From Escherichia coli (GTDB lineage: Bacteria > Pseudomonadota > Gammaproteobacteria > Enterobacterales > Enterobacteriaceae): a stretch of DNA of 64,000 bases. A model generated the notes under the pieces. That model was not told the DNA's origin. It did no database searches and saw only the letters and a program-made list of their open reading frames with translations. This document shows positions 38,607 through 40,667 of this stretch, piece by piece (positions within the stretch are counted from its first letter, which is position 1; the number at the start of each line of letters is the position of its first letter). The position numbers and the translations under genes were made by a program. The stretch is taken from assembly GCF_013315695.1 (NCBI RefSeq), contig NZ_CP054353.1. One strand, 5' to 3'.

Positions 38607-40667
38607 ATGACAGTAAAAATTTCTGGCGTGCTTAAAGATGGCACAGGAAAACCAGTACAGAACTGCACCATTGTGCTGAAGGCCAGACGAACCAGCAGCA
38701 CGGTGGTGGTGAACACGGTGGCCTCTGAAAATCCGGATGAAGCCGGACGTTACAGCATGGATGTTGAGCATGGTCAGTACAGCGTCACCCTGCTGGTTGA
38801 AGGTTTTCCGCCTTCACATGCCGGGACCATTACCGTCTATGAAGGTTCCAGACCAGGTACGCTGAATGATTTTCTCGGCGCCATGACGGAGGATGATGTT
38901 CGTCCGGAGGCACTGCGCCGTTTTGAGCTGATGGTGAATGAAGTGGCACGTCATGCCGGAGCGTCATCACAGAGTGCAGCGGCGGCAAAGAAATCCGAAA
39001 CGGCAGCAGCCTCATCGAAGAATGCGGCGAAAACCTCAGAAACGAATGCAGCTAACAGCGCACAGGCGGCAGCGGCCTCGCAGACTGCATCGGCAAACTC
39101 CGCGACAGCAGCCAAAAAATCAGAAACCAGCGCGAAAAATAGCGAGACAGCCACAAAGGCCAGCGAAAAAAACGCAAAATCCAGCCAGACGGCAGCGAAA
39201 ACCAGTGAGACGAATGCCAAAGACAGTGAAGCCAACGCAAAGGTGAGCGAAACAGCGGCGGCGAACTCGGCGAAAGCATCGGCAGCAAGCCAGACGGCAG
39301 CAAAAGCAAGTGAAGATGCTGCCAGAGAATACGCAAACCAGACAGCAGAGCCGTACAGATATGTTTTACAGCCGCTGCCGGATGTGTGGATACCCTTTAA
39401 TGATTCGCTGGATATGATTACGGGCTATTCTCCGGGTTATAAAAAAGTGAAGATTGGTGATAATGTGGTTCAGGTTGCCAGTGATAAACAGGTTAATTTC
39501 AGTCGCGCATCAACGGCAACATATATCAACAAATCTGGCGAACTGAAAACGGCGGAAATTAATGAGCCACGATTTGAAAAAGAAGGTTTATTGATTGAAG
39601 GTCAGCGAACCAACTACATGTTGAATTCAGCAACTCCAGCTTCTTGGGGTAAATCTGCAAATATGAATGTCGCTGAGGTTGGAACTGATAGTTTTGGTTT
39701 TACTTATGGAAAGTTTGTTTGTAATGAATCATTAATTGGGCAAAGTACAACCCTTAATATGGCAGTAGTTTCAACCTCGGGGGCTGTCGATGTATCAGGC
39801 GATAATAAGTGTGTGACGACATCGTGCAGATTTAAAACGGATTTGGAACTCCTGTTAAGGATCAGGTTTGAAGCCTTCGATGGCAGCGCTTCATCTAATC
39901 TTGGATATGCCATTGTTAATACGCGGTCTTTATTGGTTGAAATCACCGGTGTAGCTGCCGACAGGCTCACCGCACGAGTTAACAAAGATGAAGCTACGGG
40001 CTGGATTTTTGTAGAGGCAACGATTCAAGCAAGTAAAGAAACTTACATAACCTCTGCAATACAATACGCACCAAAAAAAGGTGGTGTCGTTGAATCTGGT
40101 GACTATATTTATCTGGCCACCCCTCAGGTTGAGGATGGTTCGTGTGTATCATCTTTTATTATATCAGGAACGACGGCGGCGACGCGCGCAAGCGATATGG
40201 TTACAGTTCCGATTAAGAATAATCTTTATAATCTTCCTTTTACGGTTCTTTGTGAGGTACATAAGAACTGGTATAAAACGCCAAATGCAGCGCCACGTGT
40301 TTTTGATACCGGCGGTCATCAAACCGGAGCGGCTATTATTCTTGGCTTCGGATCTTCGGCAGATGGGCCAGACGGATTTCCTTATTGCGATATTGGTGGA
40401 TCAAATAGGCGTGTTAACGAAAACGCATCGTTGAAAAAAATGGTTATGGGGATGCGTGTAAAGTCAGATCAGTCTACATGTGCAGTAAGTAACGGGCGTA
40501 TATCCAGCGAAACAAAAACCACATGGGAATATATCCGGAGTACAGCAACCATTCGCATTGGTGGACAAACTACAGCAGGATTACGCCATTTATTTGGGCA
40601 TGTGAGGAATTTTCGTCTCTGGCATAAAGAGCTAACAGATGCGCAGCTTGGGGAGGTTGTGGAGTGA
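38607..40667 (+). CDS. stf: Side tail fiber protein (Stf-like) with AT-rich variable C-terminal domain
   Basis: N-terminal 120 aa nearly colinear with lambda Stf (MTVKISGVLKDGTGKPVQNCTI...GFPPSHAGTITVYE); Ala/Ser/Thr/Lys repeat region; C-terminal 430 aa AT-rich. Confidence 0.8.
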   Translation: MTVKISGVLKDGTGKPVQNCTIVLKARRTSSTVVVNTVASENPDEAGRYSMDVEHGQYSVTLLVEGFPPSHAGTITVYEGSRPGTLNDFLGAMTEDDVRPEALRRFELMVNEVARHAGASSQSAAAAKKSETAAASSKNAAKTSETNAANSAQAAAASQTASANSATAAKKSETSAKNSETATKASEKNAKSSQTAAKTSETNAKDSEANAKVSETAAANSAKASAASQTAAKASEDAAREYANQTAEPYRYVLQPLPDVWIPFNDSLDMITGYSPGYKKVKIGDNVVQVASDKQVNFSRASTATYINKSGELKTAEINEPRFEKEGLLIEGQRTNYMLNSATPASWGKSANMNVAEVGTDSFGFTYGKFVCNESLIGQSTTLNMAVVSTSGAVDVSGDNKCVTTSCRFKTDLELLLRIRFEAFDGSASSNLGYAIVNTRSLLVEITGVAADRLTARVNKDEATGWIFVEATIQASKETYITSAIQYAPKKGGVVESGDYIYLATPQVEDGSCVSSFIISGTTAATRASDMVTVPIKNNLYNLPFTVLCEVHKNWYKTPNAAPRVFDTGGHQTGAAIILGFGSSADGPDGFPYCDIGGSNRRVNENASLKKMVMGMRVKSDQSTCAVSNGRISSETKTTWEYIRSTATIRIGGQTTAGLRHLFGHVRNFRLWHKELTDAQLGEVVE

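What the first reader, a model, noticed from the sequence alone, without database searches (positions are those of the whole stretch)
39360..40667. Mosaic side tail fiber: lambda-like N-terminus with an AT-rich C-terminal receptor-binding region
The first 120 residues and the Ala/Ser/Thr/Lys repeat region track lambda Stf. From about residue 250 the sequence becomes AT-rich and unrelated to lambda Stf, consistent with a horizontally exchanged receptor-binding module.
Basis: partly seen in the sequence, partly recalled or inferred. Interest (0 to 1): 0.3.

Follow-up and report, generated by a model that had tools for sequence, protein, structure and literature searches.

The report
Mosaic prophage side tail fibre
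This is an intact side tail fibre gene of a lambda-like E. coli prophage. A lambda-type attachment end and stalk are joined to a swapped-in, AT-rich, lectin-like tip that many unrelated coliphages share; the mosaic is real, but it is ordinary and already in the databases.

Summary
The finding covers the C-terminal 435 codons of one 686-aa ORF (38607-40667, +), the stf gene of a lambdoid prophage beside btsS.

- **N-terminus:** residues 1-~117 are 70-90% identical to lambda Stf (PF08400).
- **Stalk:** residues 129-240 form 16 Ser/Ala heptads.
- **Break:** from about residue 254 the similarity to lambda ends and GC falls from 0.54 to 0.435 (GC3 from 0.52 to 0.36). The best change point is at 39396.
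- **Tip:** it has no Pfam hit. It matches PHROG 1419 and the NCBIfam GTA head-spike-fibre domain, and it models confidently (pLDDT 92) as a concanavalin-A/LamG-type beta-sandwich, closest to lectins and carbohydrate-binding modules.
- **Spread:** the same module ends the lateral fibres of phage 21, other lambdoids, Drexlerviridae, Dhillonvirus, Queuovirinae, T5-like and rV5-like phages. Identity profiles are discordant between segments, so the gene is a multi-piece mosaic.
- **Partner gene:** the module travels with a translationally coupled 92-aa gene (40664-40942) of unknown fold family, which takes the place of lambda tfa.

The most likely function is a glycan-binding primary receptor module; this is inferred, not shown. 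The gene is 100% identical in many E. coli genomes and 99.6% identical to Stf of the live phage PhiR40_1. It is already known; interest is low.

The parts
38559..38588 (+). Terminator-like hairpin (13 bp stem plus a T run) between lom and stf, 18 nt upstream of the stf start codon.
   Evidence: Consensus scan only. Phage 21 has an annotated terminator just upstream of its stf, after J; it has no lom. Function not tested.
38607..40667 (+). stf: intact side tail fibre gene, 686 aa, ATG to TGA.
   Evidence: ORF list. RefSeq annotates it as 'prophage tail fiber N-terminal domain-containing protein' and the PhiR40_1 record as 'side tail fiber protein'. PHROG 1419 matches at 1202 bits.
38607..38957 (+). 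Lambda-type N-terminal virion-attachment domain (aa 1-117).
   Evidence: PF08400 E 4e-68 and a weak CarboxypepD_reg match. PDB 9e7m_Ta, lambda tail fiber aa 1-94, E 1.4e-47. 70-90% identity to lambda orf-401.
38991..39326 (+). Stalk of 16 heptads, consensus xSETAAK (aa 129-240), presumed to be a trimeric coiled coil.
   Evidence: Lag-7 autocorrelation and position-specific composition: Ser at position 2 in 16 of 17 heptads, Ala at position 6 in 13 of 17. The coiled-coil structure is inferred. AT skew of 0.7-0.8 here reflects the A-rich, T-poor codons.
39366..40211 (+). First part of the exchanged tip module (aa 254-535). It has conserved flanks (aa 255-340 and 505-535) around a hypervariable core, and contains the GTA head-spike-fibre domain.
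   Evidence: NCBIfam NF048003 matches aa 329-528 at E 3.6e-13, 50.4 bits against a cut-off of 36. PDB sequence hit to RcGTA Rcc01080, aa 298-543, E 4e-6. Conservation profile over 45 homologues. All-beta AF2 model with pLDDT 92. The domain boundary is estimated, not read from coordinates.
39639..40121 (+). Hypervariable core of the first tip domain (aa 345-505), the candidate specificity-determining surface.
   Evidence: Mean identity to the query is 0.14-0.40 per 10-aa block, with column entropy 2.3-3.1 bits; the flanks have identity 0.6-0.76.
40224..40664 (+). Second part of the tip module (aa 540-686), ending in the conserved RHLFGHVRNFRLWHKELTD tail. It is exchanged independently of the first part.
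   Evidence: Phage 21 is 70-93% identical in aa 241-420 but only 23-33% in aa 571-660. IrisVonRoten, tinuso and KurtStettler show the reverse pattern. No sequence relation to the first half (hhalign). No PDB sequence relative.
40664..40942 (+). orf92: a 92-aa acidic partner gene. Its GTG start overlaps the stf stop (GTGA) and a GGAGG lies 8 nt upstream. It occupies the place of lambda tfa.
40952..41248 (+). orf98: a small gene for a putative membrane protein, 10 nt after orf92. It is probably cargo rather than part of the fibre.
   Evidence: PHROG 1443, 'unknown function'. 77% identical to the phage 21 'putative membrane protein, 2 TMDs'. Other phages carry a second fibre gene in this slot.

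Best explanation
Window 38607-40667 encodes the side tail fibre (Stf) of a lambda-like prophage, assembled from at least four exchangeable pieces.

1. **Anchor (aa 1-117).** A lambda-type N-terminal domain fixes the fibre to the tail tip.
2. **Stalk (aa 129-240).** Sixteen Ser/Ala heptads probably form a trimeric coiled-coil stalk about 17 nm long.
3. **Tip, first part (aa 254-535).** AT-rich and horizontally shared.
4. **Tip, second part (aa 540-686).** Also AT-rich and exchanged on its own.

The tip is predicted to fold as concanavalin-A/LamG-type beta-sandwich. Its first part belongs to the family of the Rhodobacter gene-transfer-agent head spike fibre.

The tip most likely works as a lectin. 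It would bind a surface polysaccharide (O-antigen or capsule) reversibly, as the primary receptor, and so bring the J tip protein to its outer-membrane receptor. Specificity would lie in the hypervariable core (aa 345-505) and in the separately swapped second part.

The translationally coupled 92-aa gene downstream replaces lambda Tfa. It most likely helps fold or assemble the tip, or stays bound to it.

**Shown:** gene structure, the mosaic, the compositional break, family membership, the predicted fold, and the linkage with orf92.
**Inferred:** the trimeric coiled coil, glycan binding, the identity of the receptor, and the role of orf92.
For: - **Gene and context:** intact ORF in the order J-lom-stf-orf92 within a complete lambda-like structural operon next to btsS. 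It is 99.6% identical to Stf of PhiR40_1, a plaque-forming temperate phage (PMC13190303).
- **Anchor:**
- **Heptads:**
- **Compositional break:**
- **Tip family:** PHROG 1419/5939; NF048003 above its cut-off; RcGTA Rcc01080 at E 4e-6; 2,530 cluster representatives at E<=1e-3, on N-termini of many lengths.
- **Function of relatives:** the RcGTA head fibre binds capsular polysaccharide (PMC7296036, PMC10218006). Lateral fibres of T5-like and small siphoviruses are assigned to O-antigen binding, and IrisVonRoten, whose LtfA tip is 63% identical, infects O16-restored K-12 (PMC8594841, PMC11990801). An rV5-like fibre with a 'lectin-like head' was seen by cryo-EM (PMC12143355); the rV5-like nimi fibre tip is 42% identical.
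- **Mosaic within the tip:**
- **orf92 linkage:**. Its divergence tracks the conserved scaffold of the tip (rho 0.71, Mantel p 4e-4) and not the second-domain core (rho 0.20).
Against: - No receptor has been determined for any member of this tip family in coliphages. Whether IrisVonRoten's O16 tropism comes from LtfA or from its second fibre is unknown.
- Pfam finds no domain in the tip.
- The split into two sandwiches and the trimeric state are not verified. I had no access to coordinates, no multimer prediction was available, and the two halves show no sequence relation.
- Near-identical copies sit in E. coli strains of different serotype backgrounds, such as IAI39 and IHE3034. That would be unexpected for a narrowly O-type-specific binder.
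Confidence: 0.7

Rival explanations
1. The tip is an enzyme (glycanase, lyase or esterase on a ConA-like scaffold) that cleaves or modifies O-antigen or capsule, as tailspikes do, rather than a pure lectin.
Confidence: 0.12
2. The tip binds an outer-membrane protein, as proposed for lambda Stf and OmpC, and not a glycan.
For: Ur-lambda Stf was classically assigned to OmpC (cited in PMC11990801 and PMC11338833). Beta-sandwich heads can bind proteins, as LamG and BoNT Hc domains do. Identical alleles occur in strains of differing serotype.
Against: The tip is unrelated to the lambda Stf C-terminus. Its closest characterised relative and its structural neighbours bind carbohydrates. Homologous fibres sit at loci that the BASEL studies assign to O-antigen recognition (PMC8594841).
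Confidence: 0.1
3. The tip is mainly a docking platform. The real adhesin would be another protein: orf92 itself, in the manner of T4-type gp38 adhesins, or a second fibre attached through orf92 to give a branched fibre.
For: In IrisVonRoten, EC100, AKFV33, KurtStettler, JenP1, 2G7b and tinuso a second fibre-like gene follows 10-13 nt after the orf92 homologue. In IrisVonRoten, KurtStettler, 2G7b and tinuso it has the conserved N-terminus MATxTVIPxDIxxLK. Branched LtfA/LtfB fibres are documented in T5-like phages (PMC4728585). Fibre chaperones can also bind cells (North & Davidson 2021, cited in PMC11338833).
Against: The window, phage 21, ev243, ev207 and ev203 have no second fibre gene; a 98-aa membrane protein sits in that slot. 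orf92 is less variable than the tip cores and tracks the conserved scaffold, which is unlike a specificity-determining adhesin. DT57C branches without this module (PMC4728585).
Confidence: 0.08

Closest known systems
Bacteriophage lambda (Ur-lambda) side tail fibre Stf with its chaperone Tfa
   Same: Same genomic position (J-lom-stf). The N-terminal attachment domain is 70-90% identical (PF08400; PDB 9e7m chain Ta). An Ala/Ser/Thr-rich repetitive stalk follows.
   Different: The lambda C-terminal half (orf-314 region) and the tfa gene are absent. They are replaced by a ConA-like tip plus orf92. The protein is 686 aa, against lambda's 401-aa and 314-aa ORFs, which are thought to be one stf gene split by a frameshift.
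Side tail fibres of phage 21, PhiR40_1, ev243 and other lambdoid phages (PHROG 1419)
   Same: Same full-length architecture, including orf92 and, in phage 21, ev243, ev207 and ev203, the 98-aa membrane protein. Identity is 99.6% (PhiR40_1), 79% (ev243) and 64% (phage 21).
   Different: The second tip domain differs sharply from phage 21 (23-33% identity in aa 571-660) and the stalk diverges after aa 180. Receptors are undetermined for all of them.
Lateral tail fibres of T5-like (IrisVonRoten LtfA, EC100, AKFV33), Drexlerviridae (tinuso, tunus), Dhillonvirus (KarlBarth), Queuovirinae (KurtStettler, JenP1) and Vequintavirinae (nimi) phages
   Same: Homologous C-terminal tip (37-76% identity over about 430 aa), followed by an orf92 homologue. 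These loci are assigned to primary, probably O-antigen, recognition (PMC8594841, PMC11990801).
   Different: The N-terminal anchors and stalks are unrelated. Many carry an extra downstream fibre gene that the window lacks.
Rhodobacter capsulatus gene transfer agent head spike fibre Rcc01080 (NCBIfam NF048003)
   Same: Significant sequence similarity over aa 298-543 (E 4e-6; NF048003 at 50 bits against a cut-off of 36). That protein binds capsular polysaccharide (PMC7296036, PMC10218006).
   Different: Rcc01080 is a 325-aa head decoration, attached as a single subunit through an N-terminal (I/L)-G repeat to a pentameric base. Only its residues 2-10 are experimentally resolved. It lacks the stalk, and the alignment stops at aa 543, before the second tip domain.
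Concanavalin-A-like / LamG lectin and carbohydrate-binding modules (AbnA domain 4, CBM40, BoNT Hc-N, pentraxins)
   Different: Sequence identity is 7-16% and there is no Pfam match. The resemblance rests on a predicted model.

Membership tests
Lambda-type side tail fibre (Stf) | N-terminal prophage tail fibre domain (PF08400) homologous to lambda Stf aa 1-~130 | tested here: met
   PF08400 E 4.2e-68, 227.9 bits against a cut-off of 26.6. 73% identity to lambda orf-401 over 158 aa. PDB 9e7m_Ta E 1.4e-47.
Lambda-type side tail fibre (Stf) | Position downstream of J and lom in a lambda-like tail operon | tested here: met
   J is at 34096-37788, lom at 37856-38455 and stf at 38607-40667.
Lambda-type side tail fibre (Stf) | C-terminal receptor-binding half homologous to lambda orf-314 | tested here: not met
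   BLASTP best E 9.9.
Lambda-type side tail fibre (Stf) | Downstream Tfa-type tail fibre assembly chaperone | tested here: not met
   orf92 gives no alignment to lambda orf-194 and no Pfam or NCBIfam chaperone family hit.
GTA head spike fibre domain (NCBIfam NF048003) | Score above the curated cut-off for the domain model | tested here: met
   50.4 bits against a cut-off of 36, E 3.6e-13, aa 329-528 covering profile positions 1-181 of 182. phmmer hit to Rcc01080 (6tb9_F3) at E 4e-6.
GTA head spike fibre (whole protein, Rcc01080-like) | N-terminal Ile/Leu-Gly repeat that plugs into a pentameric capsid spike base | tested here: not met
   The sequence begins MTVKISGVLKDG..., a lambda-type tail anchor, and has no (I/L)-G repeat. 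The feature is as described in PMC7296036.
PHROG 1419 'tail protein' | Full-length profile match | tested here: met
   1202.5 bits for the whole protein. The tip alone gives E 1.5e-220 over profile positions 357-793 of 793.
Concanavalin-A-like / LamG lectin fold | Beta-sandwich jelly-roll structure | tested here: met
Concanavalin-A-like / LamG lectin fold | Demonstrated carbohydrate binding | not testable with these tools
   Needs binding assays.
Tailspike / depolymerase receptor-binding proteins | Right-handed parallel beta-helix catalytic domain | tested here: not met
Fibres with a C-terminal intramolecular chaperone (Peptidase_S74, PF13884) | S74 autoproteolytic chaperone domain at the C-terminus | tested here: not met
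   No Pfam hit in the tip. The protein ends in the RNFRLWHKELTD motif. S74-type ends are seen instead in the second fibre genes of other phages.

The most novel reading that the evidence does not exclude
Probability: 0.35. Interest if true: 0.4.

Novelty: already known. Interest (0 to 1): 0.17.

Why it matters
For the scan, this finding is a correct but routine call. Tail fibre genes of lambdoid phages are textbook mosaics. This exact allele is annotated in RefSeq and in a sequenced live phage.

Its practical value is modest but real.
- The junction at aa ~245-254 (end of the heptad stalk, then PLPDVWIP) is a natural fusion point. So are the conserved linkers at aa 505-540 and 655-686. They could be used to retarget lambda-based delivery particles.
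- The tip/orf92 cassette is a widespread receptor-binding module that has never been characterised experimentally. Defining its receptor would inform host-range prediction for a large share of E. coli prophages; DNA related to the tip occurs in 1,249 of 5,426 complete genomes.

Tried and rejected
- **Tandem DNA repeat in the stalk:** TRF found none at score >=30. The periodicity is at the protein level only.
- **Pfam domains for the tip and for orf92:** none.
- **PADLOC:** not run, because nothing suggested a defence function.
- **PDB by sequence:** only the RcGTA fibre, whose deposited model resolves residues 2-10 (PMC7296036). A profile of the second tip domain found nothing.
- **Internal duplication of the two tip halves:** rejected. 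hhalign gives 0.1% probability.
- **DT57C LtfA/LtfB as an experimentally characterised homologue:** rejected. Those fibres end in S74 chaperone domains and are a different module type (PMC4728585).
- **orf98 as a truncated second fibre:** rejected. It does not align with the second-fibre proteins and is a conserved 2-TM protein.
- **Word-index protein search for orf92:** gave only close E. coli relatives. Diversity had to be taken from phage loci.
- **Eligo chimeric-STF papers:** they confirm that Stf is modular in experiments but do not mention this module (PMC11338833; 10.1101/2025.02.28.640725).

Full report
**What is at the coordinates.** The finding (39360-40667) is the 3' two thirds of a single intact ORF, 38607-40667 on the + strand, 686 aa. 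It follows J (34096-37788) and the Ail/Lom gene (37856-38455). These lie in a complete lambda-like structural operon running from terminase to J. The prophage abuts btsS/btsR. RefSeq names the protein 'prophage tail fiber N-terminal domain-containing protein'. The DNA is 100% identical in several complete E. coli genomes, and 494 of 5,426 genomes hold a place covering at least 80% of the gene. The protein is 99.6% identical to the annotated side tail fibre of phage PhiR40_1. That phage is a plaque-forming temperate phage used in recent work (PMC13190303).

**Checking the observation.**
- Residues 1-158 are 73% identical to lambda orf-401. Identity in successive 30-aa windows is 90, 90, 83 and 70%.
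- PF08400 matches residues 1-131 (E 4e-68).
- The lambda tail fibre chain in PDB 9e7m matches residues 1-94 (E 1e-47).
- Residues 129-240 are sixteen heptads of consensus xSETAAK. Ser occupies position 2 in 16 of 17 heptads and Ala position 6 in 13 of 17. Autocorrelation is 0.42-0.46 at lags 7, 14 and 21. No DNA-level tandem repeat is detectable.
- The C-terminal 442 aa have no similarity to the lambda Stf C-terminal ORF.
- Base composition changes at the same place. GC is 0.542 before and 0.435 after; GC3 is 0.516 before and 0.357 after (chi-square p = 7e-5). The likelihood change point is at 39396 (aa 264). Only 3.8% of equal-length windows in the 64 kb are as AT-rich.

**What the C-terminal part is.** Pfam finds nothing there. 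Other evidence places it clearly.
- PHROG 1419 ('tail protein') matches the whole protein at 1202 bits, and PHROG 1419 and 5939 match the tip alone.
- NCBIfam NF048003, the 'phage head spike fiber domain', matches aa 329-528 above its curated cut-off.
- phmmer finds the Rhodobacter capsulatus GTA head spike fibre Rcc01080 at E 4e-6 over aa 298-543.
- An exhaustive HMMER search of 1.84 billion cluster representatives gave 2,530 relatives at E<=1e-3. The module is always C-terminal, on N-termini of very different lengths.
- An AlphaFold2 model built on 45 diverse homologues is confident (pLDDT 92.3, pTM 0.89) and all-beta, with about 30 strands.

**Evidence for exchange.** The tip occurs in 221 phage records. 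The carriers are:
- lambdoids (phage 21, ev243, 2G7b, Tritos, several PhiR phages);
- Drexlerviridae (tinuso, tunus);
- Dhillonvirus (KarlBarth);
- Queuovirinae (KurtStettler, JenP1);
- T5-like Tequintavirus (IrisVonRoten, EC100, AKFV33);
- rV5-like Vequintavirinae (nimi and relatives);
- weakly, Rhodobacter phage RcapMu.

Similarity to non-lambdoid fibres starts at aa 241-254, at the conserved PLPDVWIP motif. The module is AT-rich in every carrier (GC 0.40-0.47). That is close to T5-like genomes and well below the lambda-like tail genes here, where J has GC3 of 0.69.

Identity profiles in 30-aa windows are discordant.
- Phage 21 is 70-93% identical in aa 241-420 but 23-33% in aa 571-660.
- IrisVonRoten, tinuso and KurtStettler are 73-93% identical in aa 541-686 but 36-56% in aa 361-510.
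- 2G7b is about 100% identical in aa 61-270.

Conservation across 45 homologues shows conserved linkers (aa 255-340, 505-535, 655-680) around variable cores (aa 345-505 and about 570-650). The gene is therefore a mosaic of at least four pieces, with conserved stretches that could serve as recombination joints.

**The partner gene.** A 92-aa acidic ORF (40664-40942) starts at a GTG overlapping the stf stop (GTGA), behind a GGAGG.
- It is PHROG 1361, of unknown function.
- It has no Pfam or NCBIfam hit and no similarity to lambda Tfa.
- tblastn finds it in 187 phage records, against 221 with the tip. In all 15 loci I opened it lies directly after the fibre gene.
- Across 15 phages its pairwise divergence correlates with the conserved scaffold of the tip: aa 254-340 and aa 656-686, each rho 0.71 with Mantel p 4e-4. 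It does not correlate with the second-domain core (rho 0.20, not significant).

This pattern suits an assembly factor that serves the scaffold better than a specificity-determining adhesin. The sample is small, and genetic linkage to the adjacent tail could contribute to the correlation.

**Mechanism.** The best-supported reading has four steps.
- The lambda-type N-terminus mounts the fibre on the tail tip (shown by homology to the resolved lambda structure).
- The heptads form a stalk (inferred).
- The lectin-like tip binds a surface polysaccharide as a reversible primary receptor (inferred).
- orf92 substitutes for Tfa in folding or assembly (inferred from position, coupling and linkage).

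Support for glycan binding comes from four sources.
- The predicted fold has lectin and CBM neighbours.
- The capsule-binding RcGTA head fibre is a sequence relative (PMC7296036, PMC10218006).
- The BASEL studies assign these lateral-fibre loci to O-antigen recognition. IrisVonRoten, whose tip is 63% identical, is the only T5-like isolate in the first collection to infect O16-restored K-12 (PMC8594841, PMC11990801).
- A 'lectin-like head' was seen on an rV5-like fibre by cryo-EM (PMC12143355).

Rival readings cannot be excluded without experiments: an enzymatic tip, a protein receptor, or a docking platform for another adhesin. The last is prompted by the second fibre gene that follows orf92 in many phages. 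The window and phage 21 lack that gene.

**Verdict.** It is not new: the allele, its family and the principle of Stf modularity are all on record, including engineered lambda Stf chimeras (PMC11338833). The only open matter is that this widespread tip/orf92 cassette has no solved structure and no defined receptor. Interest is low (0.17).

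Noticed in passing
window 40664-40942 (+): A 92-aa acidic ORF is translationally coupled to stf (GTGA overlap). It is found directly after every fibre gene carrying this tip in 15 of 15 loci, across six phage lineages. Its fold family is unknown, and its divergence tracks the tip's conserved scaffold rather than the adjacent variable domain.
   Followed up: yes
window 40952-41248 (+): A 98-aa putative two-TM membrane protein (PHROG 1443, weak Phage_holin_8 hit) lies 10 nt after orf92. It is conserved in phage 21, ev243, ev207 and ev203. It occupies the slot where T5-like, Queuovirinae and some lambdoid phages carry a second fibre gene. It may be a moron or a superinfection-related gene.
   Followed up: partly
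L004:6289-8010, L009:3292-4326, L011:3289-4818, L006:3792-4463: Second fibre-like genes downstream of orf92 homologues share a conserved N-terminus (MATxTVIPxDIxxLK) and mostly end in S74-type chaperone motifs. This suggests branched fibres that dock on or near this tip module.
   Followed up: partly
window 37807-37826 and 38559-38588 (+): Strong terminator-like hairpins with T runs flank lom on both sides, the classic 'moron' layout. The second lies only 18 nt upstream of the stf start, so stf expression presumably needs antiterminated late transcription.
   Followed up: no
window 38951-39336 (-): Two overlapping 94-aa antisense ORFs lie inside the heptad-repeat region. They look like by-products of the periodic Ala/Ser/Thr codons, as with lambda's annotated orf206b in the same place. 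AT skew reaches 0.7-0.8 here.
   Followed up: no
window 41366-41614 (-) to 42114: A DinI-like gene marks the right end of the prophage, just before btsS. In phage 21, ev207 and ev203 the equivalent position holds sitABCD iron/manganese transporter cargo instead.
   Followed up: no
phage records MG065692, MG065653, MG065655, MG065635, MG065654: Records named 'Campylobacter phage' (and a few named 'Listeria phage') carry this coliphage fibre tip and orf92 at 42-75% identity, with T5-like or rV5-like genome sizes. The host labels are probably wrong, or the records are contaminant assemblies.
   Followed up: no
window 39339-40664 compared with homologues: Twelve residues are invariant across 45 homologues down to 27% identity. 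In Stf numbering these include R300, R322, E331, N336, Q507, E509, S516 and N539. They cluster in the conserved edge strands. Their role (structural, metal or sugar site, or catalytic) is not resolved.
   Followed up: no
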